Positions 3,677 to 63,504 of a DNA stretch of 64,000 nt are shown piece by piece; the stretch's first letter is position 1, and every line of letters begins with the position of its first letter. The notes beneath the pieces were generated by a model. It searched no databases and was not told the DNA's origin. It saw nothing but the letters and a program-made list of their open reading frames with translations. The translations under genes and the position numbers were made by a program. The DNA is from a phage. The stretch lies in assembly GCA_011911785.1 (NCBI GenBank), contig GCA_011911785.1_4084.1; one strand, given 5' to 3'.

Positions 3677-3730
3677 TTATAAAAGTAAGCTCGGAATATA
3701 TATTCTGGGCTTTTTATTTGGTTATATAAT

Positions 3731-4973: not shown

Positions 4974-5593
4974 TGAAACAACGTTGTGTAGTATGGGATT
5001 GTGATGAAGTGCTATTGGACCACATTGGTGGTCTATATAATTTTGTTAAAGAACATTATGATATTCATCCAGAAACACCATATCCAGAAAAATATGATTT
5101 GTGTCAGTGGTTGGGTGGAATTACTCAACCTGAAGTTCAAGAGATTCTAAAACACTTCAACCATCGTTCTTATGAGTTTGGTCTACTTGACCCAGTAGAA
5201 CATAACACGGTTGGAATTATGCAAGAATTACGTGATAAGTTCCCATATGATAAATTTGTAGTACTGACTAAATCTGGTACATTCGGTCACGGGGAAGTTC
5301 TCCGTAAGGTGAATCTCATTAATGTATTTGGTGAAGGTATTTTTGATGATATCATTATCATTGAAATGTATGAATCCAAAAAATCAGCACTAATGAAATT
5401 AAAAGCTCAATATGACGTTAAATTTTTGATTGACGATTATATTAAAAATATAGAAACGGCTATAGAGTTGGATATACCTGCTGTTATGATGTGTGCGTGT
5501 CATAACCATGAATACAAGCATAACAACGGCTTTGATTATGTTAATAATTGGAGCGAACTTCGTCTAAAAATTTACGAACTAATGAAAAAATAA
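4973..5593 (+). CDS. HAD-superfamily 5'(3')-deoxyribonucleotidase-like protein
   Basis: N-terminal DxDxV-type motif (VVWDCDEVLLD); start refined to ATG 4973 overlapping the upstream stop. Confidence 0.5.
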   Translation: MKQRCVVWDCDEVLLDHIGGLYNFVKEHYDIHPETPYPEKYDLCQWLGGITQPEVQEILKHFNHRSYEFGLLDPVEHNTVGIMQELRDKFPYDKFVVLTKSGTFGHGEVLRKVNLINVFGEGIFDDIIIIEMYESKKSALMKLKAQYDVKFLIDDYIKNIETAIELDIPAVMMCACHNHEYKHNNGFDYVNNWSELRLKIYELMKK

Positions 5594-10175: not shown

Positions 10176-10204
10176 TTGACATATAAATGTGCCCATTGTA
10201 TAAT
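10176..10204 (+). promoter_or_regulatory. sigma70-like promoter with hairpin-embedded -10
   Basis: TTGACA, 17 nt, TATAAT; inverted repeat ATGTGCCCATT / AATGGGCACAT flanks the -10, followed by T-rich tract. Confidence 0.6.
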
Positions 10205-10237
10205 GGGCACATATTTTATTAATTATCTAAGGATAAT

Positions 10238-13229: not shown

Positions 13230-13746
13230 TAAAGATCTACCATATCTCCCCGATCTGGAAAGAGGTGTTAATGAGTTCGTTCAGGTAATATCAGAGTGGG
13301 ATGTATCAGTATTTTCATATAATCGTAAGAAGGATTTCGAATATAAAGGCGTTCATTTTTTTATCACGGATAATTTAATAACCCTGCAATCTAAAATAGA
13401 AATGTTTGGATCTTTAGACCCCATATATCGTCAGCCATATTCTGATCCATACAAAGAAAATATTGCAAGAATGTTTGAAAATAGAACAAGACAATATACC
13501 CGAAATTATTTTGGTACTTTCGATTTCACTAAAAAAGGTACATTGGTTGGATATACCATATCAACAGAATCTTTCACATCTATACATAGTGTGATTCTTG
13601 GTGAGAAAAAAATGTTAGTTAATAATGAAGATTGGTTAGACCGTGAAAATTTTCATGAATATGCATTTCAGCATTCTGTAGCAAATCCAAAAGAACCATT
13701 TGATGTGTTCTTTATTTCTAATGTATTAAGAATGTTAGGAGAATAA
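13216..13746 (+). CDS. hypothetical protein (about 176 aa)
   Basis: Start refined to ATG 13216 with RBS aaaggattataaacATG. Confidence 0.5.
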   Translation: MQYDNKDLPYLPDLERGVNEFVQVISEWDVSVFSYNRKKDFEYKGVHFFITDNLITLQSKIEMFGSLDPIYRQPYSDPYKENIARMFENRTRQYTRNYFGTFDFTKKGTLVGYTISTESFTSIHSVILGEKKMLVNNEDWLDRENFHEYAFQHSVANPKEPFDVFFISNVLRMLGE

Positions 13747-13747
13747 T

Positions 13748-16459: not shown

Positions 16460-16893
16460 ATATGAATCTTGAACAAGTAATCCGTAACAACCCATTCTTC
16501 GCAGAAAACCCTTCTCGTGTAATTGAAGCGATTAAAGTTGAAGAGCTAATGATTACCGTCAAATATAAAGAAGAAGGTGATGAAATTAGTAGCGTAGTAT
16601 GTGCTCTTCGTGCACCTTTCCGTAAAGAAGCAGCTAAGAAACCAGCATATGTACTATCTATCTGCTTGGGTTGTGTAGTTAAACTGGTTGTTGATGAAAA
16701 TAGTTTCAACATCAAGGTTGCACCAACTAATGATGATGAGAATGTTGATCTCAACTTTGATGGTGGGTTGCCAGAAGAAGAATTCTTCCAACAGTCACTT
16801 GTTGTAGATTTCCGTTCAGTAACTTATGACCATATCAAACTAATCAATGAAATGGTTGATATCGTCGCTAAGTTCGAAGAAGAAACCGCATAA
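16456..16893 (+). CDS. EEYFQ-motif family protein (family A)
   Basis: C-terminal PEEEFFQQSLVVDF...YDHIKLINEMV. Confidence 0.65.
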   Translation: MNMNLEQVIRNNPFFAENPSRVIEAIKVEELMITVKYKEEGDEISSVVCALRAPFRKEAAKKPAYVLSICLGCVVKLVVDENSFNIKVAPTNDDENVDLNFDGGLPEEEFFQQSLVVDFRSVTYDHIKLINEMVDIVAKFEEETA

Positions 16894-16904
16894 TATAAAA
16901 AGAA

Positions 16905-16938
16905 ATAAGGCTCTCAATCGGGAGCCTTATATTCATTT
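16905..16938 (+). terminator. putative intrinsic terminator
   Basis: AGGCTCTC-loop-GGGAGCCT hairpin then T-rich. Confidence 0.5.
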
Positions 16939-16970
16939 GTTAAATAAGACAAAGTAAAGGAGTACTTAAT

Positions 16971-17522
16971 ATGATCGAACAAATTCAAAAATTCACGAAC
17001 CAAATTGTAAATTTCCTAGCAGATAAAGAAGGATTCAGTACTGAAGTTACACATCACGGTGTTAACCTTAACGTTACTGCACCAAGCGGTGATGTAACGT
17101 CATATGACATGTATGAGTTATTGCTTTATACAATGGCAGTACGCAAAATAGGTTCTGATATAGAGCTAAACATCAATACTGATGACAAAGGGAACAATAT
17201 TTTTGCTATTAATACGGATGCTAAACTTGATGTAATTGCAGAAATTCAAAAAATTAACGAGTCATTTATTAATTTCCAACATGATACGATACAATCCGTT
17301 TTTATTGGTCATCAAACATCTGAAAGTGTTTGCCCTTTTTGTGTAATGACTCTCTATAAGAATGGTAATTGGATGCGTCATGATTTGGCTAAAGCTGAAG
17401 TTCTTTATGCCATTACACATGGTATGAAACTTGAACTAGATGACAGTGCTTTTGTCTTTAAGAAACTAAGAAAATTAACACTAGATGTTCAGACTAAATT
17501 AAAAGAACTTAATGATAAATAA
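16971..17522 (+). CDS. hypothetical protein (183 aa)
   Basis: RBS aaaggagtacttaatATG. Confidence 0.6.
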   Translation: MIEQIQKFTNQIVNFLADKEGFSTEVTHHGVNLNVTAPSGDVTSYDMYELLLYTMAVRKIGSDIELNINTDDKGNNIFAINTDAKLDVIAEIQKINESFINFQHDTIQSVFIGHQTSESVCPFCVMTLYKNGNWMRHDLAKAEVLYAITHGMKLELDDSAFVFKKLRKLTLDVQTKLKELNDK

Positions 17523-17631
17523 TTATGCCAGTAATGGCTAACATATTATTATGTTATTTTTCCTCCCTTCTATAATAAAATTAATTTATTATATTTTCCA
17601 TTTCTTATTGTACATTTTATATCTTTTCGTA

Positions 17632-17655
17632 CTGCCCCTCCCAGGGGCATTTTTT
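17632..17655 (+). terminator. intrinsic terminator
   Basis: TGCCCC-loop-GGGGCA hairpin followed by TTTTTT. Confidence 0.6.
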
Positions 17656-17670
17656 ATATTAGGATAAAGT

Positions 17671-18066
17671 ATGTTAGGTAGTAGAATAGGCAGCATCGTC
17701 ACAATTAAACTTTCTTATTATCTAAATGATTTTTCAAAGATCGATTTATCAAAATATCAGCAATCATCATTCTATTATGAATCATCTGAGCATAAATTTT
17801 CTATCAGCAAAGAACCGGTAAAACTAAAGTATCAGGGGGTTGCAGAAAAGAATGAATTCGTGTATGATTATGGTATGGACAAAATTGTATTCACTGAATA
17901 TACTAAGGGTACAAGACCTACATGGAAAGCGGATTATCATAGAAAATCATTCATCAATATACATAAGTATCTTGACGAAGAGCATTACTTTCAACAGTTG
18001 CTTTTGGAGGATTTACCATTCACTATTGATGATCTAAAAACATTATTTAAGTACTATGCGATATAG
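17671..18066 (+). CDS. EEYFQ-motif family protein (family A)
   Basis: C-terminal DEEHYFQQLLLEDLPFTIDDLKTLF. Confidence 0.6.
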   Translation: MLGSRIGSIVTIKLSYYLNDFSKIDLSKYQQSSFYYESSEHKFSISKEPVKLKYQGVAEKNEFVYDYGMDKIVFTEYTKGTRPTWKADYHRKSFINIHKYLDEEHYFQQLLLEDLPFTIDDLKTLFKYYAI

Positions 18067-18083
18067 TACTAAAGGAGATACAT

Positions 18084-18518
18084 ATGATTATATCATTCAA
18101 AAAAGTACTAAAATATTTCCAAAATAATAAACTTAAAGATATGAAAGTACGTGTCAATTTCTTTGCTAAAAGTGTGTGGTTTTGTACAGAGGATGAAATT
18201 AAGGTTAATGTAAGATTAACTGATTCATATGAAATAATTCGCCTGTACGCAACCATTGATGGTGTGGATACCAAGATATCATACATTTCAACGAGTGGTA
18301 CGTTGATCATGAGTACGCGAGAAAATGAAACTGATACATTCAATGAAATTAAGATAGAAAACATCCATGAAATCACATCTGAAGAGATACTATTTCAACG
18401 TTCACTTGTTGACAATGTACTAGATTTAACATATGATAATATCATACTAATTCACAAACTGCATGATGAGGCAAAAGCGTTTGCTCTAACCAAATTCGGA
18501 GAATTGGATGATAAGTGA
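18084..18518 (+). CDS. EEYFQ-motif family protein (family A)
   Basis: C-terminal TSEEILFQRSLVDNVLDLTYDNIILI; RBS aaggagatacatATG. Confidence 0.65.
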   Translation: MIISFKKVLKYFQNNKLKDMKVRVNFFAKSVWFCTEDEIKVNVRLTDSYEIIRLYATIDGVDTKISYISTSGTLIMSTRENETDTFNEIKIENIHEITSEEILFQRSLVDNVLDLTYDNIILIHKLHDEAKAFALTKFGELDDK

Positions 18519-18933
18519 CCTGTTGAATATTGATATCACTAAACTAAAAATTACCGATTGTGGTATGTGTGTCAATGATAAACGTAAGATTGATTATGCT
18601 ATACTTACTGATGGCAATAAATCTCTTTGGTATGATAAATCTGTAGGAATTCAATTTAGACATAGTTCTAGTACTGAAAAGTATTCAGAGACATTAGATT
18701 ACATAAGTAATGGTAGTATTATCTATGTAAAATATTCAGAATCTGGAAAAATTACAAATACCATTACATTCAATGAAAAGAAGTACTCTGAAGAAGAATT
18801 CTTTATGGTTAGTACTTTGTATGATTTTGGGTGTATCAGGTACTGTGATTATGTTAAAACATTGGACATTTCCAATAAGATCTATTCAATACTTGAGCAA
18901 TATGAAAAGGAGATTGTAGATGACAGTAAGTAA
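18508..18933 (+). CDS. EEYFQ-motif family protein (divergent)
   Basis: C-terminal SEEEFFMVSTLYDF (Q replaced). Confidence 0.5.
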   Translation: MISDLLNIDITKLKITDCGMCVNDKRKIDYAILTDGNKSLWYDKSVGIQFRHSSSTEKYSETLDYISNGSIIYVKYSESGKITNTITFNEKKYSEEEFFMVSTLYDFGCIRYCDYVKTLDISNKIYSILEQYEKEIVDDSK

Positions 18934-19330
18934 ATGTTACATTATCATTCGTGAAGACTTAGATATGCCAGTTGGGAAGCTTGCTGCTCAGGCGGGTCAT
19001 GCGGTTGATTCTATCTGGTCCACGATTACCGTTGCTGGTACATCAATTCGTGGTTGTAATGCTGTTGGTGAGAACCCAAGAGATGAAGATGAAAAGATCC
19101 TGAACGATTTCAGTACTTGGGTACAGGACGGTCGTCGCAAGATTATCTTAAAGGCTAAATCTGAAGAACAGATGCTTAATCTATTCGATAAAGTGAAAGC
19201 TGAAGGATTCACTGCAACTAAGATTCATGATTATGGATTCAACCATTTTGATGGTCTAACATTAACTGGATTCGTTGTGTTCCCGTGCACTGACGAAGTT
19301 AAAGCATTGAAAAGGGTAAGATTATGGTAG
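18920..19330 (+). CDS. PTH2-family peptidyl-tRNA hydrolase
   Basis: IIIREDLDM-PVGKLAAQAGHA resembles the PTH2 signature (R.DL.M..GK.AAQ..HA). Confidence 0.7.
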   Translation: MTVSKCYIIIREDLDMPVGKLAAQAGHAVDSIWSTITVAGTSIRGCNAVGENPRDEDEKILNDFSTWVQDGRRKIILKAKSEEQMLNLFDKVKAEGFTATKIHDYGFNHFDGLTLTGFVVFPCTDEVKALKRVRLW

Positions 19331-19704
19331 ATGAATTGGATAGAAAAATTGATGCTTTGTATAAATCAATTGAAACCAATGAGGTTACTGTATATTATGG
19401 GAGACAGAGTGTACAACAATCAAATTCATGTTTACGTTTAACCATAACCTTAGATTCAAGAGATAATCCATATACTTGTGTTTTCAAAGAAAGAAACACA
19501 ATTGAATGGATTGGTTGGTATATAGATGACCGTCTTTCATACCTTTATGATTTTGAAAATTATGATGGTTCAGAAGTTTACTTGAATTCAACTGAAGAAG
19601 AATTATTTCAACTATCATTAATTGAAAAACATGTAATGTCATATGACAATTTACAAAAAATCAAGTCAATAATGAATTATGCTCTATCTAAGGTAAAGCA
19701 ATGA
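19324..19704 (+). CDS. EEYFQ-motif family protein (family A)
   Basis: C-terminal STEEELFQLSLIEKHVMSYDNLQKI. Confidence 0.65.
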   Translation: MVDELDRKIDALYKSIETNEVTVYYGRQSVQQSNSCLRLTITLDSRDNPYTCVFKERNTIEWIGWYIDDRLSYLYDFENYDGSEVYLNSTEEELFQLSLIEKHVMSYDNLQKIKSIMNYALSKVKQ

Positions 19705-20141
19705 ACATTAAATTAGTTAAAAAATATATCAGTACTTTTAATAAAATTAAATTTATCAACGATGGTTTGACTGATCCTGAAGAACAAATTAAAAATACCA
19801 CATACGTAGGTCAGAATTGCTTTAAGATTATTATTGAAAATAATGTATTATCATTATCAGTTAATAATCTGGTATATGGTGATCAGATGTATATCGTGCA
19901 CAATGTTAATAACAATAACTTAGAAATTATGCTTCGTGATGATAATGTTATCAAAATATATCAGGTACAAAATGTAAGTGAATGCACTACTGAAGAGGGG
20001 TATTTCCAGGAATCACTGGTTCAAACATTTAATATTGATTTCAAGGATTTAAAATATCTCATGAGTACGCTAACAAAAATGCGTTCAGCTATCTTTAACA
20101 TCTTTTTTATTGATGAACAGCGACAAATGGATGTAAAATGA
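19701..20141 (+). CDS. EEYFQ-motif family protein (family A)
   Basis: C-terminal TTEEGYFQESLVQTFNIDFKDLKYL. Confidence 0.65.
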   Translation: MNIKLVKKYISTFNKIKFINDGLTDPEEQIKNTTYVGQNCFKIIIENNVLSLSVNNLVYGDQMYIVHNVNNNNLEIMLRDDNVIKIYQVQNVSECTTEEGYFQESLVQTFNIDFKDLKYLMSTLTKMRSAIFNIFFIDEQRQMDVK

Positions 20142-20560
20142 ACCCAAGAGATTGTTTTGATTTGTTAAAGGGAATGCCTATAGATTCACTAGTACCTGAT
20201 AATAGGTTTGAGCACAATCTTGATTTTCATGGTGAAAATTACAATGTATATATAAGCTACAGTGATGATGAGAGTGAAGAACTAACATTTGTGTTCATTT
20301 ATAATGTTTTTGAAGGTGATAAGTTGTTGGATGTTGAAATTGCATCATATACTGTCACAAATCAATACGTTATCGAAGATGAACTTCGCAACAAATTTGA
20401 TATAACACTGTACAGTACTGAAGAAGAGTTGTTTCAGTTAAGTACTATCAGTGATGTGTGCACAACCGTCGAAGAGTTAGCAGACGTTAAGAAAATCATT
20501 GACACTGTGTACAACAAGATATACAATACATTCCATATTGAGAAACAATTGAAAGGGTAA
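20138..20560 (+). CDS. EEYFQ-motif family protein (family A)
   Basis: C-terminal STEEELFQLSTISDVCTTVEELADV. Confidence 0.65.
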   Translation: MNPRDCFDLLKGMPIDSLVPDNRFEHNLDFHGENYNVYISYSDDESEELTFVFIYNVFEGDKLLDVEIASYTVTNQYVIEDELRNKFDITLYSTEEELFQLSTISDVCTTVEELADVKKIIDTVYNKIYNTFHIEKQLKG

Positions 20561-20564
20561 CACA

Positions 20565-20825
20565 GTGACTACAGTAGTTCGTAAACGCCACATGATGAAC
20601 ATGGATGAATTCCGTACATTTGACAAATATCGCACTATGTTTCGTATGCTGACACAGGGGCGTCCAATTGTCATTGTAACAGAAAATTACATGTCACCTG
20701 AAATCATGTTTGGTAATTATGAAAAGGTTTTCATGTTGTATGTGAAGCGTGGATTATTAACTATCAAGACCTTAGCAGAAGCAACTGATGAAGACATGGA
20801 TGGTGATAACACGTTTACCATGTGA
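20565..20825 (+). CDS. hypothetical protein (86 aa)
   Basis: ORF with GTG start. Confidence 0.4.
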   Translation: MTTVVRKRHMMNMDEFRTFDKYRTMFRMLTQGRPIVIVTENYMSPEIMFGNYEKVFMLYVKRGLLTIKTLAEATDEDMDGDNTFTM

Positions 20826-20901
20826 GGAACTATGAGCGAAAAACCAAAAGAACCATTAGACCGTGATGATGATTACTACGACGAACGTTATGGTGATAAA
20901 G

Positions 20902-21153
20902 ATGAGTGAACATAGTGCAGTGCTAAAAAAGATTTTAAATGATCTGGGTAGTGAAATTGAAGTTTCAGACGAAGAATATGAATTTTGGAAAAAGGATTTT
21001 GAACAACTGTCCGAGAGTGATAAAGTGTTCAATATGATTGGTGTTGTCAGTCAGTACTTACTCGGTGGTGGTCGTGCTAGTGCTTCAATCCTTGCATCGG
21101 CAATCATCTGTACTGCCCGATGGTGTCAAGAAAAAAGTATTGACGATTTCTAA
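20902..21153 (+). CDS. hypothetical protein (83 aa)
   Basis: Start refined to ATG 20902. Confidence 0.45.
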   Translation: MSEHSAVLKKILNDLGSEIEVSDEEYEFWKKDFEQLSESDKVFNMIGVVSQYLLGGGRASASILASAIICTARWCQEKSIDDF

Positions 21154-21211
21154 ATTAGGAGATATAATGTTTGTATCAGAGAGAAAGAATGTATAAGGAA
21201 TTATATTTTGC

Positions 21212-21240
21212 TTGACAATGGAGCAATAATATTATACAAT
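21212..21240 (+). promoter_or_regulatory. sigma70-like promoter
   Basis: TTGACA, 17 nt, TACAAT. Confidence 0.5.
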
Positions 21241-21384
21241 TAATCAATCTTATACAACGAGGAAACTCCAATTGAAATATGTAATACTCCTTATTCCAGT
21301 GGGGTCATTCCGTGAAATTCTACCTACTGATGTACTGGATGGTCTTAAAAAGAGAAATCCACATAAGTTTTAAATAGTATTAAA

Positions 21385-21425
21385 AAGGACAATACTGGGC
21401 GAATATTCGTCCAGTATTTTATTTT
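21385..21425 (+). terminator. putative terminator (imperfect hairpin)
   Basis: ACTGGGCG-loop-CGTCCAGT then T-rich tract. Confidence 0.35.
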
Positions 21426-21439
21426 ATAAAGGATTATAG

Positions 21440-22300
21440 ATGGAACCGATACGTGTACTATCTTTGTTCAATGGGATGAGTGTAGGATATATTGCATTAC
21501 AAAATGCTGGTATAGCAGTTGATAAGTACTACTCATCTGAAATTGACAAATTTGCTATAGCTGAATCCCAGGCTAACTTTCCTGATATCATCCAATTGGG
21601 TGATGTAACCAAATGGAAGGAATGGGATATCGAATGGGACAAGATAGATCTACTGATGGGGGGTTTCCCTTGCCAAGCATGGTCAGTGGCGGGTAAACAA
21701 GGTGGATTAACTGATATCCGTGGTCAACTATTTCTGGTTATGGTTGATATATTCAATCATATTAAAAGTTTAAATCCTAACTTGAAATTCTTATTCGAGA
21801 ATGTTAAGATGAAGGAAGATTTCAAGGAATATATCAATGGTATATTGCAACTAACCCCAGTACTGATAAACTCCCAGCATTACACGCCTCACTTCAGGCA
21901 ACGTTACTACTGGTACAGTACTGATAAGTTATTCATACCACCTGCAATATCCAAAGCCCCAAAGCTTCAAGATATACTTGATGATGGTTGGTACACAGAC
22001 AGAACCGCTTCGTACTGTATTGATGCCAATTACTTCAAGGGTGGAGATCCGAATCAGTACTTCAATAAGTCAAGAAGACAAATCGTTTTCAAAGACCCTG
22101 ATATCAACAGGAACTTCCTGATTGAGAAGGGTAAACGAAATGTGGACTATCGACATTTGACAGTGCAAGAGTGTTGCATTTTACAGGGAGTTGATGTAAA
22201 CTATTTCAAAGTGTCAAGTAACACACAAGCGTACAAAATGCTTGGTAATGGCTGGACAGCACCTGTTATAGAACATTTACTTCGTGATATATTCTTTTAA
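21440..22300 (+). CDS. DNA (cytosine-5)-methyltransferase
   Basis: Motif IV GGFPCQAWSVAG, motif VI FENVKM, motif VIII-like RQRYYW, motif I-like LFNGMSVG; short (286 aa). Confidence 0.8.
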   Translation: MEPIRVLSLFNGMSVGYIALQNAGIAVDKYYSSEIDKFAIAESQANFPDIIQLGDVTKWKEWDIEWDKIDLLMGGFPCQAWSVAGKQGGLTDIRGQLFLVMVDIFNHIKSLNPNLKFLFENVKMKEDFKEYINGILQLTPVLINSQHYTPHFRQRYYWYSTDKLFIPPAISKAPKLQDILDDGWYTDRTASYCIDANYFKGGDPNQYFNKSRRQIVFKDPDINRNFLIEKGKRNVDYRHLTVQECCILQGVDVNYFKVSSNTQAYKMLGNGWTAPVIEHLLRDIFF

Positions 22301-22315
22301 CCATTAGAGGCACAA

Positions 22316-23700
<1,385 letters not shown>

Positions 23701-24146: not shown

Positions 24147-24290
24147 ATGCCAGTGCGTAACAGTACATCACGCTTTACACTTCAACAGAAAGCAGATCTT
24201 CTGAATATGGCTAATAAAGATTCTAATTTTTACTATCTAGTACTTGGTGGTTCAGTTGAAAAGATTGATCTACGCGAGTGTATGAAATAA
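24147..24290 (+). CDS. small hypothetical protein (47 aa)
   Basis: Untracked small ORF with RBS taaggagtaattATG. Confidence 0.4.
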   Translation: MPVRNSTSRFTLQQKADLLNMANKDSNFYYLVLGGSVEKIDLRECMK

Positions 24291-24473: not shown

Positions 24474-24499
24474 CAATATATCGAGAGTGTGTGATAATA
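24471..24499 (+). promoter_or_regulatory. sigma70-like promoter
   Basis: TTGACA, 17 nt, GATAAT. Confidence 0.5.
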
Positions 24500-24536
24500 C
24501 TCTCGTCTTTTAATTAAACAAAAAGGTAAAATAAAA

Positions 24537-28208: not shown

Positions 28209-28352
28209 ATGAGTTCACAGAAAGTTGATTTGGTTTTAAAACTCCAAGAGATTCAAGCACTTGCAAAAAATCTCGATGAAAAAAGTACTAAAATGGTAGA
28301 CGACCTCTGTGCATCTATTTTAGTAGTGTTTGCTGAAGCAGAAAAGAAATAA
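28209..28352 (+). CDS. small hypothetical protein (47 aa)
   Basis: Untracked ORF, RBS aggagattaaaaATG. Confidence 0.4.
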   Translation: MSSQKVDLVLKLQEIQALAKNLDEKSTKMVDDLCASILVVFAEAEKK

Positions 28353-29414: not shown

Positions 29415-29891
29415 ATGCCAATTCGTGGTATACCAGAACCATTAAGTGAAGTTCTTAAGAATGTCAATGTTGGAACACGAGAAGTTAATCAGCGACGTGG
29501 TAATATATATTACTTTAAAACTACAGGAATGAGTTCTATACAGGTTGTTATTGGCACATCTATTACGGTCACGCGTGTTCTTGATGGTAGTACTGACTTC
29601 GTTGGATACAATGTACTTACTAATAAAGTAACACATACATATAAATGGAGTGGTTATAAAACCATCACATATGAGTTTGACTTAGCTAGAACTGAAGAAG
29701 AACGATTTATGTTGAGTACTATTAATCCAGCAAACTATCCTGACCTTGATGCATTTTTGCTAATTTTAAAATTGTATAATGAAGCAAATGAGAAAGCTAA
29801 AGAGTATGATAGAATCATGTATGAACGTAGAAAAGAACGTTCTCAAAAAAGTTATGATCTGTATGAAAGTTACATTCATAGATCCAAATGA
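29415..29891 (+). CDS. EEYFQ-motif family protein (divergent)
   Basis: Start refined to ATG 29415; C-terminal RTEEERFMLSTINPANYPDLDAFL. Confidence 0.5.
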   Translation: MPIRGIPEPLSEVLKNVNVGTREVNQRRGNIYYFKTTGMSSIQVVIGTSITVTRVLDGSTDFVGYNVLTNKVTHTYKWSGYKTITYEFDLARTEEERFMLSTINPANYPDLDAFLLILKLYNEANEKAKEYDRIMYERRKERSQKSYDLYESYIHRSK

Positions 29892-32474: not shown

Positions 32475-33412
<938 letters not shown>

Positions 33413-35228: not shown

Positions 35229-35657
<429 letters not shown>

Positions 35658-35665
<8 letters not shown>

Positions 35666-36020
35666 TCTAATAGTACGTATAATGCAAGATGTTCGAAAGA
35701 ACCTTTATACAGGCAATTTTGACGATTCGAACATTAAACTATTATGTTATGATGGTTTTACCTTGGTACATCCATCTGAATCAAATAATATATACATATC
35801 ATATACTTCCAAAAATCAATTATATCAATTTGATATATATAGCACAATGGCTAAAATAACTTTGGACGTATCCAAGCAGCCTATTCTTATCGCTGTACCA
35901 GAATGCAATTACACTGAAGAATCACTGTTTCAGTACTCAATGATAAATGACATTGGCGACTTGACATTAGAAGAGATTAACGCTATACTAGATGTATCAC
36001 GTTTGATTAATGCCTACTAA
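35658..36020 (+). CDS. EEYFQ-motif family protein (family A)
   Basis: C-terminal YTEESLFQYSMINDIGDLTLEEINAIL. Confidence 0.6.
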
Positions 36021-36033
36021 TTTGGAGATTAAT

Positions 36034-36225
36034 ATGTTCTGGAATTTGTTATGTCTTTTTGGTCGTACCTTTGTTCTTGCAATTATTCATACACCAGGTA
36101 TTCGTAATTTTGTTTCTTATGAATTTAAGAAAAATTATCACAACAATACTGAAGTTCGTGCCACTAAAATGTGCAAAGACTTCAATGTAACAGTACCACC
36201 ATTTAAGAAGTACGAGGATGAATAA
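36034..36225 (+). CDS. small membrane protein (63 aa)
   Basis: Start refined to ATG 36034 (RBS tggagattaatATG); hydrophobic N-terminus. Confidence 0.5.
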   Translation: MFWNLLCLFGRTFVLAIIHTPGIRNFVSYEFKKNYHNNTEVRATKMCKDFNVTVPPFKKYEDE

Positions 36226-36503
36226 TGGAATTCATTGTAGCTCCTGAAGAACTCAAGACCTTTAAGTTCAAAGATAATTATACGTATTCAAATCATTCCT
36301 TGAATTCAATTCATGTAATTGCAATGGTTGCATCTGAATATAAAGATAACCCGTGTATTGATTTTAAAACCACTGATGGTGAATATACATGGGTGATCCC
36401 ACGAGATAAATATAGTTATCAAGGGGCAGTAGAAATTCGTGACTCGATTCTAAAACAAATCGAAGATGGACATACTCATCCTAAACTAAACATTCAGTAC
36501 TGA
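36225..36503 (+). CDS. hypothetical protein (92 aa)
   Basis: ATGA overlap. Confidence 0.55.
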   Translation: MEFIVAPEELKTFKFKDNYTYSNHSLNSIHVIAMVASEYKDNPCIDFKTTDGEYTWVIPRDKYSYQGAVEIRDSILKQIEDGHTHPKLNIQY

Positions 36504-36832
36504 AAATGTTATACCGATAGCTTCTGGAGCAGTACTGAATCCTCCTTTTTCTTTCAGAAGCTATCACATATTTTGTCGTAAAATGGTACTGTGAGTGGTT
36601 TGTCTTTCCATTCTCTCCAGGTCCAGTACCTATCATTGTAGTTCTGGAGAGATATAACATGTATAATGTTTTTTACCTCCTGTTTATCATTATATATGTC
36701 ACTAAACGAGTAATAACTACCCTCCCTCTAGGTTATTACTTTTGATTTTGGTATTGACTTTCAATGCCGCAAATGTTATACTTAAGGCTGATTCAAATTG
36801 AATCGGCCTTTTTTCTTTTTAAGGAGAACACC
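36504..36832 (+). ncRNA. ORF-free structured region (candidate leader or small RNA)
   Basis: About 330 bp with no tracked ORF; nested inverted repeats GATAGCTTCTG/CAGAAGCTATC (36516..36565) and TCTCTCCAG/CTGGAGAGA; two terminator-like hairpins with T-runs. Confidence 0.3.
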
Positions 36833-37228
36833 ATGAATTTGGTTGTAGAAGACGATATCTTTTCCGATGCTATTGAGTATATGTACAATCTTGTTAGACT
36901 TAATGAATTTGTACAACGTCATACATTGACACATAAGGATGGGATTATTACTGTTGGTGCATACATTAATGGATACTTAACCGAGTTTTACAATTGTGAT
37001 AACATTTTTATAACCATTGATAACATCACTACGACTAATGACATATCCATTGATTTATTCAAAGATCATATTGAAATTGATATAGACAAGATGATTGCCA
37101 TCGATATCGATCCTGTAATGTATGAGTTACAAGAAGAAATGTATGAGCAATTATGCTTTGTGTATGATTTGAGTAAAATTTCATTCTTTGACTTACGCAG
37201 AATCTGTTACGTAGTAGGTAAGTTATGA
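36833..37228 (+). CDS. EEYFQ-motif family protein (divergent)
   Basis: Start refined to ATG 36833 (RBS taaggagaacaccATG); C-terminal LQEEMYEQLCFVYDLSKISFFDLRRI. Confidence 0.5.
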   Translation: MNLVVEDDIFSDAIEYMYNLVRLNEFVQRHTLTHKDGIITVGAYINGYLTEFYNCDNIFITIDNITTTNDISIDLFKDHIEIDIDKMIAIDIDPVMYELQEEMYEQLCFVYDLSKISFFDLRRICYVVGKL

Positions 37229-37698
37229 CAAATATACGTGATGTATTAATGCAGTACGGTATCAGTGCTGAAATGCTTTCAGATGAAATTATTAAAAACT
37301 CTAAGATAGAATTTATGTTTAATAGACACCGTTATCCAGGTGTTTATATTAATCGATCCTGTTCATTAATTTACTTTGAATACATGGATGAATATGTTAT
37401 CATTGAAGAAATCAAACTCAATGGATGGCACTGTACAATTGAGTTAACGAAACCAAGAACCAAGAACAAAATAGTGATTAGTATTAATATCTATTACGAT
37501 ATTAGTACTGAAGATGGAGCCTCACACTTTGTTCGAGTTTTGTCATCTGATGATAATTTAAAGTTAGATTATAAATCAGAAGAAGAATACTTTCAGGAAA
37601 GTTTAATCAATGATTTAGTTTTTGATTATAACTTTTATAAAGAACTATCAAAAAACTTCGTTGAATGTATCAAACTATATGAGGAAGAGGACGAATGA
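37225..37698 (+). CDS. EEYFQ-motif family protein (family A)
   Basis: C-terminal KSEEEYFQESLINDLVFDYNFYKEL. Confidence 0.65.
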   Translation: MTNIRDVLMQYGISAEMLSDEIIKNSKIEFMFNRHRYPGVYINRSCSLIYFEYMDEYVIIEEIKLNGWHCTIELTKPRTKNKIVISINIYYDISTEDGASHFVRVLSSDDNLKLDYKSEEEYFQESLINDLVFDYNFYKELSKNFVECIKLYEEEDE

Positions 37699-38114
37699 AA
37701 AATTATAAGTTAAGTACAGAATACAATGAAATGATCATCAATGCACTTGATAATCATGGTGAGTTTCGTTATCCAGGTGAAGGATTGAACGTTTACTTCG
37801 GAGATGAAAACTGGTGCTATCTGAATAATGGTGTTCTGACTATCCATATTCAGGATATTAAAAGTGATGTATCATTTGGAATTCACCTAGTTCCCGGTAC
37901 ATTGGTTAATGACGCACGTATCAATGTTATTGTCAATGAGAACGAATTCTTTCATGATGATTTTGAAGATGTTAAAATGGCAGCTAGTAAGATGTATACT
38001 ACTGAAGAAGAGTACTTTCAGGATAGTACTGTGAAAGATATGCGAATCCCTTATGAGTTGATGGTTTCAGTACAGAAATTTATTGAGGATTTCAGATGCG
38101 ATTTGATCAAGTAG
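37695..38114 (+). CDS. EEYFQ-motif family protein (family A)
   Basis: C-terminal TTEEEYFQDSTVKDMRIPYELMVSV. Confidence 0.65.
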   Translation: MKNYKLSTEYNEMIINALDNHGEFRYPGEGLNVYFGDENWCYLNNGVLTIHIQDIKSDVSFGIHLVPGTLVNDARINVIVNENEFFHDDFEDVKMAASKMYTTEEEYFQDSTVKDMRIPYELMVSVQKFIEDFRCDLIK

Positions 38115-49013: not shown

Positions 49014-49020
49014 AGAAAAA

Positions 49021-49047
49021 GGGTTGACTTAGGTCAGCCCTTTTTTT
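49021..49047 (+). terminator. intrinsic terminator (composite module type)
   Basis: GGGTTGAC-TTAG-GTCAGCCC hairpin followed by TTTTTTT; TTGACT hexamer in 5' arm. Confidence 0.7.
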
Positions 49048-50905: not shown

Positions 50906-51073
50906 TGCAAATCATTATCTTAATCGTTGGTATCGGTTTGGGCATCTATGGACATTCATGGGTAACTGAGAAGTTTCCTGACACCCGTCCAGATTACTGT
51001 ACAACTAAAACTGAAAGTACTGAAAGTATTGGAACTAAGATCGATAAAGTAATCGAGGTGATTAAACAATGAT
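50906..51073 (+). CDS. small membrane protein (55 aa)
   Basis: Untracked ORF, RBS ttagaggaactatcATG; hydrophobic N-terminus. Confidence 0.4.
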
Positions 51074-51150
51074 GAAACTTAATATATTTCTGGTTGTATT
51101 CACTGTCGTTGTTATCGGTATTGGTGCACTGGCATATATCCAACCTTAAA
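51070..51150 (+). CDS. possible hydrophobic micro-protein (26 aa)
   Basis: Untracked ORF MMKLNIFLVVFTVVVIGIGALAYIQP with ATGA overlap; speculative. Confidence 0.25.
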
Positions 51151-51361: not shown

Positions 51362-51459
51362 GGATGCAAACGTGACTTTAGAGATTATCGTTGGTATTGT
51401 TAGTTTTATTCATCTGTGTTGGTTGGTTTGGGTATATGATGATTTTTAGTGATTAACAC

Positions 51460-51487
51460 TTGACAGAAGATATCAGTACTGTATAAT
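51460..51487 (+). promoter_or_regulatory. sigma70-like promoter (GTATAATGTTTAT class)
   Basis: TTGACA, 16 nt, TG-TATAAT; downstream GTTTATATCAAA box shared with 51808 and 62687. Confidence 0.65.
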
Positions 51488-51532
51488 GTTTATATCAAAC
51501 GAAATCCACTTTAACAAATGATAGGAAATATT

Positions 51533-53693: not shown

Positions 53694-54199
53694 TGAATCT
53701 TAGTACTGATAAGTTTGTAAAGTTCATAGAGTTTATCAACTTCAATGAGAGCTACAATGGTACGTACAATACTATGAATATTGTATCTGATAAAGTATTT
53801 GATAGTACAATGTTCTATTTGTATGATACAAACGGTGATAAGCTGTGTGATGTTACATTCGGTATTGGTGATCTTTTTGAATCTGCGGTTTATCTATCTA
53901 AACCAACGGTGCGTGATACATATGAAATTCACTTTCATAATAGACCGAATCACAAAAACATTGTAGAATATGATATACCATCATCACACGAACTGTTCAT
54001 TGTAGATTACAGTACTGAAGAGGGTGTATTTCAAAGTTCATTGCTATACAACTTTGAACTACACGATCCTGATATTCCTAAAGTACTGGCAATTTCCAAT
54101 AAGGTATGTGAATTGCCATATAACATATACATGTCAGTTCCTGGTAAAAGAGTAGGTAATTTCTGTAAAGCCTTTGACATACAAGCGGATGATAAATGA
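53693..54199 (+). CDS. EEYFQ-motif family protein (family A)
   Basis: GTG start; C-terminal STEEGVFQSSLLYNFELHDPDIPKVL. Confidence 0.55.
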   Translation: MNLSTDKFVKFIEFINFNESYNGTYNTMNIVSDKVFDSTMFYLYDTNGDKLCDVTFGIGDLFESAVYLSKPTVRDTYEIHFHNRPNHKNIVEYDIPSSHELFIVDYSTEEGVFQSSLLYNFELHDPDIPKVLAISNKVCELPYNIYMSVPGKRVGNFCKAFDIQADDK

Positions 54200-57443: not shown

Positions 57444-57450
57444 TTAAAAA

Positions 57451-57476
57451 AGGTTGACTAACGTCAGCCTTTTTTG
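57451..57476 (+). terminator. intrinsic terminator (composite module type)
   Basis: AGGTTGAC-TAAC-GTCAGCCT hairpin then TTTTT; TTGACT in 5' arm; weak -10-like TTATAC 17 nt downstream. Confidence 0.7.
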
Positions 57477-57513
57477 TTATACTTATTCCATATTAATTGA
57501 ATAGGTGCACATC

Positions 57514-58813: not shown

Positions 58814-58818
58814 ACTAC

Positions 58819-58850
58819 GGGGTTGGCATAAGTCAGCCCTTTTGTATAAT
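58819..58850 (+). promoter_or_regulatory. composite terminator-promoter module
   Basis: Hairpin GGGGTTGGC-ATAA-GTCAGCCC then TTTTG; TTGGCA in 5' arm, 16 nt, TATAAT. Confidence 0.6.
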
Positions 58851-58858
58851 GGTGACTT

Positions 58859-59437
58859 ATGAACCGTAAAGGTAAGTTTAAAGTATCAAAGAAGAATAAA
58901 AGTGGAAGGTTCAATGATATATGCTTAGGTTTTATCAAAGCACACAATAAACTTTCTGCCCTGAGTAGAAAGATAGTATCTAACAAGATTGATATTAGAT
59001 ATATAAGTACTAACAATAGTACAGGGAAAGATGCACATCCAACTGAAAATATTATTTCAGTATCCTTCGTATACGATGGTCTGGACATTACGATAGATGA
59101 TTACAGACGATACGGTACTGGGTTTATACGTATCTATTGCAGAGATGCATCTGATAAGCCGGAACGTATTCGTATTATCGGTACATTGAGTGCTGGTATA
59201 TTTGAGTGGGAGATTGTTCAACTTAAAACTATCGATGAGTACACCACAAGTTCTAATATTATTGAGTTGAATTGTAATGTGAAAGACCTCCCAAACTTGA
59301 GCGAAGAAGAATATTTTCAAGAAAGCTTGCTAACGCCAAATTTGGATGATATAATTAAACAATATAAGACAATGGTGTACTTCTTCAAATGTATCAAACC
59401 TAAGACTTGTTTGATGAATATTGTCCGTGATCTATAA
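58859..59437 (+). CDS. EEYFQ-motif family protein (family A)
   Basis: C-terminal SEEEYFQESLLTPNLDDIIKQYKTM. Confidence 0.6.
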   Translation: MNRKGKFKVSKKNKSGRFNDICLGFIKAHNKLSALSRKIVSNKIDIRYISTNNSTGKDAHPTENIISVSFVYDGLDITIDDYRRYGTGFIRIYCRDASDKPERIRIIGTLSAGIFEWEIVQLKTIDEYTTSSNIIELNCNVKDLPNLSEEEYFQESLLTPNLDDIIKQYKTMVYFFKCIKPKTCLMNIVRDL

Positions 59438-59880: not shown

Positions 59881-60104
59881 TGAAAAGGTATAAAATTGAA
59901 TACCTACTTAAAGTAAGAGAGAAAAGTATTAGTAGTGAGAAATACACCAGTGAGATATTCGTCAGAGATGAGTATTACATTGGTGAAAATGAAGTTGAAG
60001 TACTGTTACAATGCATAGAAAATGAATTTCGAGATATGACACGTTATATGTCATTTGAGATATCGTGTGCAAAAGTTACATTCTTGAACAATACTTCATA
60101 TTAA
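59877..60104 (+). CDS. hypothetical protein (75 aa)
   Basis: ATGA overlap. Confidence 0.5.
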   Translation: MMKRYKIEYLLKVREKSISSEKYTSEIFVRDEYYIGENEVEVLLQCIENEFRDMTRYMSFEISCAKVTFLNNTSY

Positions 60105-60108
60105 AAAA

Positions 60109-60140
60109 GGGTTGACTTTTGTTGACCCTTTTTGCTATTC
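60109..60140 (+). promoter_or_regulatory. composite terminator-promoter module
   Basis: Hairpin GGGTTGAC-TTTT-GTTGACCC then TTTTT; TTGACT in 5' arm; TATTCT/TATAAA -10 candidates. Confidence 0.6.
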
Positions 60141-60187
60141 TATAAATATGACATAGAGGTAACATTTAATAATCTATGGAGAAAAAA

Positions 60188-61726: not shown

Positions 61727-61735
61727 TAAAAAAAG

Positions 61736-61769
61736 AGGTTGACTTCGGTCAGCCTTTTTTGCTATAATA
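61736..61769 (+). promoter_or_regulatory. composite terminator-promoter module
   Basis: Hairpin AGGTTGAC-TTCG-GTCAGCCT then TTTTTT; TTGACT in 5' arm; TATAAT at 61764..61769. Confidence 0.65.
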
Positions 61770-61795
61770 CTCACATAACCTAAAGGAGAAACTCT

Positions 61796-62676: not shown

Positions 62677-62686
62677 TGAAAAGTAT

Positions 62687-62714
62687 TTGACAAACTCAAC
62701 TAGTACTGTATAAT
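62687..62714 (+). promoter_or_regulatory. sigma70-like promoter (GTATAATGTTTAT class)
   Basis: TTGACA, 16 nt, TG-TATAAT, then GTTTATCAAG. Confidence 0.65.
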
Positions 62715-62761
62715 GTTTATCAAGGGGATGAACTTCTCATCCCTTCAATCGAGGAACTACC

Positions 62762-63327: not shown

Positions 63328-63504
63328 ATGAAACTACGTACTCGCAATCGTTTGATGGATGAACTGTACCACGAACGCTATACATTGAATGAAGTAAAGC
63401 GTCAGTTAATGCATACCTATCAGTTACCAGCCCGTGCAGCGAAACAACGTGCTAACGAATTGCTGAAAGAAGCAATCGAGTACTGGGAATCTGATTCGTA
63501 CTAA
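63328..63504 (+). CDS. small hypothetical protein (58 aa)
   Basis: Untracked ORF, RBS taaggataacttatATG. Confidence 0.45.
   Translation: MKLRTRNRLMDELYHERYTLNEVKRQLMHTYQLPARAAKQRANELLKEAIEYWESDSY

What the first reader, a model, noticed from the sequence alone, without database searches (positions are those of the whole stretch)
21154..21439. Promoter-to-terminator unit without a tracked ORF (candidate small RNA)
A sigma70-like promoter (21212..21240) and a terminator-like hairpin (21385..21425) bracket about 150 nt that contain only very short ORFs, immediately upstream of the methyltransferase gene. It could be a small RNA or a regulatory leader.
Basis: seen in the sequence. Interest (0 to 1): 0.4.

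Follow-up and report, generated by a model that had tools for sequence, protein, structure and literature searches.

The report
Inserted mini-gene cassette before phage methyltransferase
The promoter-to-terminator unit is real, but it is best read as a 234-base extra gene module (own promoter, ribosome site, 33-codon orphan reading frame, own terminator) that one sub-lineage of giant E. coli phages gained just in front of its DNA methyltransferase gene; this is an ordinary kind of phage genome variation, not a demonstrated small RNA.

Summary
P2 (TTGACA-17-TACAAT, 21212-21240) and a strong hairpin plus T-run (21391-21428) sit in a 286-nt gap upstream of a C5-methyltransferase gene in an Asteriusvirus-like jumbo phage. 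Both signal classes are far above chance here. Matches of at least 11/12 to the sigma-70 consensus number 39 on the + strand and 0 on the - strand, against 2.4 in shuffles. The hairpin has z = -6.65.

The unit is not ORF-free. P2 lies 32 nt upstream of a TTG-start, 33-codon ORF (21272-21373) with a GAGGAA Shine-Dalgarno 7 nt upstream. Its codon usage is typical of this phage's genes, and its stop lies 17 nt before the hairpin, which is the phage's standard gene layout.

About 34 other Asteriusvirus genomes lack about 234 nt here and keep only a roughly 50-nt promoter/RBS spacer. Phage A4 and five assemblies carry the near-identical cassette. So this is a lineage-specific moron/PeSL-style insertion into the methyltransferase 5' UTR.

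The RNA body shows no structure beyond the terminator, no Rfam match and no antiterminator alternative. The peptide has no homologue anywhere. Coding versus non-coding is not settled by comparison, because only four substitutions exist. I favour a small-protein gene (about 0.65). Interest is low to moderate.

The parts
21140..21168 (+). P1: sigma-70-like promoter (TTGACG-17-TATAAT) overlapping the stop codon of the upstream gene. Its -10 box is homologous to the single methyltransferase promoter (TGCTATAAT) of related phages.
   Evidence: 11/12 match; alignment A1
21192..21206 (+). Left copy of the imperfect direct repeat TATAAGGAATTATAT. It resembles the ancestral methyltransferase RBS region and marks the left edge of the insertion.
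   Evidence: 12/15 match to the right copy; reached by 71 of 2000 shuffles
21207..21439 (+). Lineage-specific insertion of about 233-234 nt, absent from about 34 other Asteriusvirus genomes. The exact junction is ambiguous within the repeat.
   Evidence: query span 871 nt against record span 637 nt
21212..21240 (+). P2: sigma-70-like promoter (TTGACA-17-TACAAT) with AT-rich upstream DNA. The transcription start is inferred near 21247.
21259..21264 (+). Shine-Dalgarno GAGGAA, 7 nt upstream of the TTG start codon.
21272..21373 (+). 33-codon ORFan, TTG start: MKYVILLIPVGSFREILPTDVLDGLKKRNPHKF. It is not annotated in any record or assembly.
   Evidence: codon usage; intact in 7 copies; no homologue
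21391..21428 (+). Intrinsic-terminator-like hairpin (21391-21418; 12 bp, 5 G-C, loop ATAT) followed by a T-run.
   Evidence: (z = -6.65)
21425..21439 (+). Right copy of the repeat, TATAAAGGATTATAG. It is the working RBS region of the methyltransferase gene.
21440..22300 (+). C5 cytosine DNA methyltransferase gene (286 aa, intein-free allele). It now lies downstream of the cassette terminator.

Best explanation
The window comes from an Asteriusvirus-like jumbo E. coli phage. A sub-lineage of these phages (this phage, phage A4 and five assemblies) gained a 234-nt gene module inside the 5' untranslated region of the methyltransferase gene.

The module is a complete early transcription unit. Host sigma-70 RNA polymerase would start at P2, near 21247. 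The roughly 180-nt transcript carries a Shine-Dalgarno sequence and a TTG-start 33-codon ORF encoding a basic orphan peptide. Transcription would stop at the hairpin and T-run 17 nt after the stop codon.

It therefore works like a 'moron', or like the ORFan cassettes that shuffle between promoter/stem-loop motifs in T4-type phages. The insertion is bounded by an imperfect 15-nt duplication of the methyltransferase RBS region, which suggests recombination at short regulatory homology.

One side effect follows. The ancestral promoter P1 and the new P2 are now both separated from the methyltransferase gene by a terminator. That gene must then be expressed by read-through, as many genes in this phage appear to be.

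Shown here: presence/absence polarity, the signal classes and their statistics, ORF features and the lack of homologues. Inferred: actual transcription, translation, terminator efficiency, insertion mechanism and peptide function. My guess for the peptide is an accessory early or host-interaction role.
For: Insertion:
- 36 records (about 34 phages) span 637-648 nt where the query spans 871-878 nt.
- Alignment A1 shows that the relatives have only TATAAT...AAAAAGGATTTTAT-ATG (sequences).
- The cassette is 98.7% identical in A4 and present in L009, L012, L013, L014 and L015.

Promoter class is real:
- 39 sites on the + strand, 0 on the - strand, 2.4 in shuffles.
- Intergenic promoters end 24-65 nt before a start codon. 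The distance from P2 to the TTG is 32 nt.

Terminator:
- z = -6.65.
- The layout of stop, hairpin, T-run, then about 20 nt to the next ATG recurs at 3687, 17633, 28360, 30289, 36784 and 56283.

Coding:
- The codon score is 0.254 bits/codon, which is the 39th percentile of true in-frame 32-codon pieces.
- That score is reached by 0.2% of off-frame pieces and by 2-3% of 144 small + strand ORFs. The other five frames are all negative.
- Among intergenic small ORFs it groups with the gene-like set that has SD sequences.
- The ORF is intact in all 7 copies, and the amino-acid changes are conservative: I5M, L6I, R14H.

No RNA-structure signal exists outside the terminator.
Against: - The start codon is TTG. 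Only 6 of 98 long ORFs here lack an ATG near their start.
- The SD core is only 4 nt.
- No gene caller or annotator called the ORF.
- Nothing was found by tblastn against 50,697 phages beyond A4. Pfam and PHROGs gave nothing. phmmer against 1.84 billion proteins gave 0 hits.
- Comparative data do not show purifying selection. There are four variable sites, 3 non-synonymous and 1 synonymous, all inside the ORF, while promoter and terminator are invariant.
- G+C of the cassette (31%) is not distinct from the genome (35%), so a foreign origin is not shown.
- The flanking repeat is weak evidence (12/15, p about 0.04).
- No transcript or protein data exist.
Confidence: 0.65

Rival explanations
1. 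The P2-to-terminator transcript (about 180 nt) acts as a phage-encoded small regulatory RNA, either non-coding or dual-function. The 33-codon ORF would be fortuitous or secondary.
For: The transcription unit has a discrete, sRNA-like size and a strong terminator hairpin. All four substitutions among the copies fall in the ORF, at a 3:1 non-synonymous to synonymous ratio, so protein-level constraint is not shown. The start is TTG and the SD is modest. RNA-seq found ncRNAs in a distantly related jumbo phage, PA5oct (PMC7318152).
Against: There is no Rfam match even at E <= 10. The RNA body is no more structured than shuffles (z -0.85, -0.46), and the 5' hairpin is not kept in A4. Codon usage, SD spacing, promoter-to-start distance and stop-to-hairpin distance all fit a gene. 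No target was identified.
Confidence: 0.2
2. The unit is a leader-peptide or terminator attenuator that regulates the methyltransferase gene. Translation of the short ORF would decide whether transcription stops at the hairpin.
For: The order promoter, short ORF, terminator, then 21 nt to the methyltransferase ATG is formally that of an attenuator. With no promoter after the hairpin, the methyltransferase gene depends on read-through.
Against: No competing antiterminator was found. Before the 3' arm is made, the 5' arm pairs only in a weak A-U stem. Forcing either arm open costs 11-12.6 kcal/mol. There is no run of regulatory codons. The element is absent upstream of the same gene in about 34 relatives. 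The same layout of hairpin followed by the next gene is generic in this phage.
Confidence: 0.07
3. The insert is a decaying remnant, for example the 5' end of a once longer gene left with its promoter and a terminator, and has no present function.
For: It is an ORFan with no homologues. The substitution pattern is neutral-looking. The N-terminus (MKYVILLIPVGS...) loosely recalls the start of larger enzymes. That resemblance comes from memory and was not supported by Pfam.
Against: The promoter, SD, ORF, stop and terminator are all intact, correctly spaced and identical across 7 independent copies. No similarity to any longer protein was found in 1.84 billion representatives.
Confidence: 0.08

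Closest known systems
Morons of tailed phages (Hendrix/Juhala concept; definition as quoted in PMC4378225)
   Same: It is extra DNA between two genes that are adjacent in related phages. It consists of a single short coding region with its own promoter and its own terminator.
   Different: The host is a virulent jumbo phage, not a prophage. Nucleotide composition is not distinct from the flanks (31% against 35% G+C). The ORF has only 33 codons and is unverified. The insertion sits inside a 5' UTR, so its terminator also insulates the downstream gene.
PeSL (promoter-early stem-loop) ORFan cassettes of T4-type phages (Arbiol et al. 2010, PMC2839356; Comeau et al. 2014, PMC4122927)
   Same: It lies in an early, ORFan-rich region densely populated by consensus sigma-70 promoters and stem-loops. 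The indel is a single small ORFan that brings its own promoter and terminator. The relative has a single regulatory motif at the same place. Short regulatory homology lies at the junctions. Composite hairpin/promoter motifs occur elsewhere in the window (10187, 24482, 49016, 57446, 58815, 60104, 61731).
   Different: At this locus the hairpin is about 150 nt downstream of P2 and is not fused to a promoter. The flanking homology is only about 15 nt of RBS region, not an approximately 100-bp PeSL. The phage is an Asteriusvirus, not a T4-like virus. Mini-circle intermediates were not tested.
Phage-encoded small RNAs and ncRNAs (for example the four RNA-seq-defined ncRNAs of jumbo phage PA5oct, PMC7318152)
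   Same: It is a short promoter-to-terminator unit in a jumbo phage that automated annotation leaves empty.
   Different: The PA5oct ncRNAs were called where plausible ORFs were lacking. Here a plausible ORF fills most of the unit, and no structure or family match supports an RNA function.

Membership tests
Moron | Extra DNA inserted between two genes that are adjacent in related phages | tested here: met
   About 34 Asteriusvirus genomes lack about 234 nt between the same two genes.
Moron | Own promoter upstream of the inserted ORF | tested here: met
   P2 is an 11/12 match, 32 nt before the start codon. The site class is 16-fold above shuffles and strand-specific. This is sequence-level evidence only.
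Moron | Own terminator downstream of the inserted ORF | tested here: met
   A hairpin with a T-run lies 17 nt after the stop codon, z = -6.65. This is sequence-level evidence only.
Moron | A (usually single) protein-coding region | tested here: inconclusive
   The 33-codon ORF has an SD and gene-like codon usage. It has a TTG start, no homologues and no selection signal.
Moron | Nucleotide composition different from the neighbouring genes | tested here: not met
   G+C is 30.9% for the cassette, 34.3% for the ORF and 34.7% for the window.
PeSL-mediated ORFan cassette | Composite motif: sigma-70 early promoter with AT-rich upstream region and a stem-loop within or abutting the promoter | tested here: not met
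   At this locus the hairpin (21391-21418) is about 150 nt downstream of P2 and no promoter follows it. Composite motifs do exist elsewhere in the window.
PeSL-mediated ORFan cassette | ORFan flanked by two homologous regulatory motifs where the related phage has one | tested here: inconclusive
   The relatives have one promoter/RBS unit. Here the insert is flanked by a 12/15 repeat of the RBS region, reached by 71 of 2000 shuffles.
PeSL-mediated ORFan cassette | Location in a hyperplastic region rich in small ORFans and early promoters | tested here: met
   The window has 118 of 127 ORFs on the + strand, mostly small hypothetical proteins, and 39 near-consensus promoters. Annotations of the relatives agree.
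PeSL-mediated ORFan cassette | Circular excision intermediates (mini-circles) | not testable with these tools
   This needs PCR across the junction on phage or infected-cell DNA.
Known RNA family / structured sRNA | Match to a curated covariance model | tested here: not met
   There was no Rfam hit in 21154-21439 at E <= 10. Only tRNAs reached the gathering score in the whole window.
Known RNA family / structured sRNA | Stable or conserved secondary structure beyond the terminator | tested here: not met
   z = -0.85 (21247-21320) and -0.46 (21320-21385). A4 folds differently. Too little variation exists for a covariation test.
Leader-peptide transcription attenuator | Mutually exclusive antiterminator and terminator structures coupled to leader translation | tested here: not met
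   The only alternative partner of the 5' arm is a weak A-U stem. The terminator is favoured by 11-12.6 kcal/mol.
Leader-peptide transcription attenuator | Conserved association with the regulated gene across relatives | tested here: not met
   It is absent upstream of the orthologous methyltransferase gene in about 34 phages.

The most novel reading that the evidence does not exclude
The cassette is a recently mobilised mini-gene caught at its integration site in a non-T4 jumbo phage. It would have entered through RBS-level microhomology, a PeSL-like modular shuffling mechanism operating outside the T4-like viruses. It would then do two things. It would add a 33-residue early peptide, possibly an anti-defence or host-takeover effector sitting next to the anti-restriction methyltransferase. 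Its terminator would also uncouple the methyltransferase from its early promoters and re-time or lower DNA methylation.
Probability: 0.15. Interest if true: 0.45.

Novelty: new member of a known kind. Interest (0 to 1): 0.25.

Why it matters
If the 33-codon ORF is translated, it adds one more unannotated micro-protein to a jumbo-phage early region. It would also show that annotation pipelines miss such genes: none of seven records or assemblies called it.

The clean presence/absence polymorphism, with junctions in the RBS region, gives a small and tractable example of how early-region gene modules move in Asteriusvirus genomes. It also sets up a natural experiment on a terminator placed between a methyltransferase gene and its promoters. 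It does not open a new class of element or mechanism.

Tried and rejected
- **Rfam** on 20000-23000 at E <= 10, and on the whole window at gathering score: nothing at the locus.
- **Peptide homology:** phmmer against 1.84 billion representatives gave 0 hits. Pfam and PHROGs at E <= 10 gave 0 hits. tblastn against 50,697 phage genomes found only A4.
- **Cassette DNA:** blastn against phages, E. coli genomes and plasmids found only A4 plus sub-significant 32-nt matches.
- **Collection scans:** two exact patterns and one degenerate pattern in viral contigs gave 0 hits. The degenerate PTDVLDGLKK pattern in metagenome and genome contigs gave 0 hits. A second pattern gave one hit in each collection, both inside unrelated ORFs with no similarity outside the pattern, so they are chance matches.
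- **Exact-product look-up** of the peptide: not on record.
- **Paralogues inside the window:** none by blastn-short or tblastn. The best tblastn hit had E = 0.058 and lies inside a longer unrelated ORF.
- **Minus-strand ORF 21176-21271:** rejected. Its codon scores are negative and the window has no minus-strand promoters.
- **Attenuator model:** no antiterminator found.
- **dN/dS-type test:** not possible, with only four variable sites among seven copies.
- **Structure prediction** of the peptide was not run. A single-sequence model of 33 residues would not discriminate between the hypotheses.

Full report
**Context.** The window is from a jumbo E. coli myovirus of the Asteriusvirus type. The segment 20800-22400 matches Escherichia phage A4 (355 kb) at 90% identity and matches other Asteriusvirus genomes more distantly. 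Nearly all ORFs are on the + strand (118 of 127 with at least 50 aa). Most are small hypothetical proteins, and a tRNA cluster lies at 31.8-35.2 kb.

**The observation.**
- The gap between a 96-aa ORF (phrog_27090, ends 21153) and a 286-aa C5 cytosine methyltransferase gene (21440-22300, PF00145) is 286 nt. It is the sixth largest gap in the window.
- It contains a 12-bp hairpin (21391-21418) followed by TTATTTTATA.

**Are these signals more than chance?**
- The local scan at a threshold of at least 9/12 is not enriched (27 found against 26 expected).
- At a threshold of at least 11/12, the window has 39 sites on the + strand and none on the - strand. Dinucleotide shuffles give 2.4 +/- 1.6. 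Near-consensus host-type promoters are therefore a real, strand-specific feature of this region.
- This agrees with what was inferred for the early region of the related phage CBB (PMC5259590).
- The hairpin is very unlikely by chance (z = -6.65).
- It belongs to a + strand-biased set of terminator-like hairpins, 11 against 3 on the - strand.

**What lies between the signals.**
- The roughly 150 nt are not empty. A 33-codon ORF (21272-21373, TTG start) begins 32 nt after the P2 -10 box.
- That is the usual distance in this phage. Intergenic promoters end 24-65 nt before a start codon.
- GAGGAA lies 7 nt upstream of the TTG.
- The stop codon lies 17 nt before the hairpin. The hairpin ends 21 nt before the next ATG.
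- The same layout of stop, hairpin, T-run and next gene, with no promoter in between, recurs at 3687, 17633, 28360, 30289, 36784 and 56283.

**Codon usage of the ORF.**
- With a codon table trained on 79 long + strand ORFs, the small ORF scores 0.254 bits per codon. True in-frame 32-codon pieces average 0.290 +/- 0.137.
- The score is reached by 0.2% of off-frame pieces and by 2-3% of 144 other small + strand ORFs.
- The five other frames of the same DNA all score negative.
- Intergenic small ORFs split into two groups. A gene-like group has SD sequences and scores of at least 0.25. A noise group scores around -0.1. This ORF falls in the gene-like group.

**RNA properties.**
- Apart from the terminator, the RNA is no more structured than shuffled sequence: z = -0.85 for 21247-21320 and z = -0.46 for 21320-21385.
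- A4's version of the 5' part folds differently.
- No Rfam family matches even at E <= 10.
- No antiterminator alternative exists. Forcing either terminator arm open costs 11-12.6 kcal/mol.

**Comparative evidence.**
- A distant blastn of 20863-21740 finds 36 Asteriusvirus records (about 34 phages). In them a query span of 871-878 nt corresponds to only 637-648 nt.
- The alignment (A1; sequences) shows that 121Q, EC.P1, CMSTMSU, JNE01, Turkey5, UE-S1 and ph0011 have a spacer of about 50 nt. It reads stop codon, TGCTATAAT, about 39 nt, then ATG.
- P1's -10 box is homologous to that TATAAT. P1 is therefore the ancestral methyltransferase promoter.
- About 233-234 nt (roughly 21207-21439) are extra. 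The most divergent relatives (Turkey5 and JNE01, 76% identity) also lack it, so it is an insertion and not a loss elsewhere.
- The insert is bounded by an imperfect direct repeat: TATAAGGAATTATAT at 21192-21206 and TATAAAGGATTATAG at 21425-21439. Both copies resemble the ancestral RBS region ATATAAAAAGGATTTTAT. The repeat is only modestly beyond chance (12/15; 71 of 2000 shuffles).

**Distribution of the cassette.**
- Besides A4 (98.7% identity), it is present in five assemblies from different samples.
- These are Logan ERR7425836, SRR9693738 and SRR5371465, ENA ERZ27302919, and a 352-kb contig of GCA_036253495.1.
- In the 7-way alignment (A2) only four columns within the spacer vary. All four are in codons 5, 6, 8 and 14 of the small ORF (I5M, L6I, one synonymous change, R14H).
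- The ORF is intact in all seven copies, but this divergence is far too small to test selection. Identity in the spacer (98.6%) equals that of the upstream flank (97-99%).
- No annotator or gene caller called the ORF.

**Origin.** No source was found. The evidence:
- No other phage among 50,697.
- No E. coli genome or plasmid.
- No match in viral, metagenome or genome contig collections, apart from two chance hits.
- No Pfam or PHROG family.
- No protein among 1.84 billion representatives.
- No paralogue in the window.
- G+C (31%) is like the rest of the phage (35%).

**Interpretation.** The element is a self-contained early gene module: promoter, SD, 33-codon ORFan and intrinsic terminator. 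It was inserted into the 5' UTR of the methyltransferase gene in one Asteriusvirus sub-lineage.
- It meets the structural definition of a moron (PMC4378225), except that its composition is not distinct and its host is a virulent phage.
- It also resembles the ORFan cassettes exchanged between promoter/stem-loop (PeSL) motifs in T4-type phages (PMC2839356). However, no composite promoter-hairpin motif occurs at this locus, and the junction homology is short.
- I put the protein-coding reading at about 0.65, an sRNA or dual-function RNA at about 0.2, an attenuator at about 0.07 and a functionless remnant at about 0.08.
- One consequence is inferred, not shown. Both P1 and P2 are now separated from the methyltransferase gene by a terminator. 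That gene must then be expressed by read-through, which appears to be the norm for genes following hairpins in this genome.

**Verdict.** This is a new member of a known kind of phage genome variation, of low to moderate interest. Transcript end mapping and a translation test would settle it.

Noticed in passing
window 21440-22300; L001 3141-5039 (phage A4); L013 587-2485: The methyltransferase gene exists as an intein-free 286-aa allele (window, 121Q, EC.P1, Turkey5). It also exists as a 626-632-aa allele that carries a Hint + LAGLIDADG intein, starting at about residue 77 next to the catalytic FPCQ motif (A4, L013; probably also UE-S1, ph0011 and JNE01, judged by length). The upstream cassette occurs with both alleles.
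   Followed up: partly
window 49016-49045, 57446-57492, 58815-58844, 60104-60150, 61731-61777; also 10187-10212 and 24482-24505: Composite hairpin-plus-promoter motifs occur here. In one repeated family the stem-loop contains the -35 box (AAAAAGGGTTGACTTAGGTCAGCCCTTTTT, then GCTATAAT). In two other sites the stem-loop spans the -10 box. They look like the PeSL motifs described for T4-type phages, here in an Asteriusvirus-like genome.
   Followed up: partly
window 32475-32507, 32884-32916, 51459-51491, 62686-62718: A conserved promoter family, CTTGAC(T/A)...CAGTACTGTATAATGTTT, is present. Two copies are identical, and two lie just upstream of tRNA genes or small ORFs.
   Followed up: no
whole window: Near-consensus sigma-70 sites show extreme strand asymmetry: 39 on the + strand and 0 on the - strand, against 2.4 expected from shuffles. 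About half of them lie inside ORFs, shortly before the next gene.
   Followed up: yes
window 13612-13746, 24147-24290, 28209-28352, 51069-51149, 51372-51449, 63328-63504: Other small ORFs (25-58 aa) lie in intergenic gaps with Shine-Dalgarno sequences and gene-like codon usage. Two of them are short hydrophobic peptides. Some may be unannotated micro-protein genes.
   Followed up: partly
window 16774-20458, 29683-29732, 35540-38042, 54008-54033, 59303-59328: A short coding motif, roughly (T/S)EEE(L/Y/F)FQ(Q/L/E)S, recurs near the C-terminal part of many small ORFs. This points to a large paralogous family of early proteins.
   Followed up: no
window 4974-5547 and 13230-13747: These are the two largest stretches without an ORF of at least 50 aa (574 and 518 nt). 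Apart from the small-ORF listing, they were not examined.
   Followed up: no
window 21189-21215: An 8-codon ATG ORF (MYKELYFA) lies between P1 and P2 and ends inside the P2 -35 box. It is probably meaningless, but it would be present on P1 transcripts.
   Followed up: no
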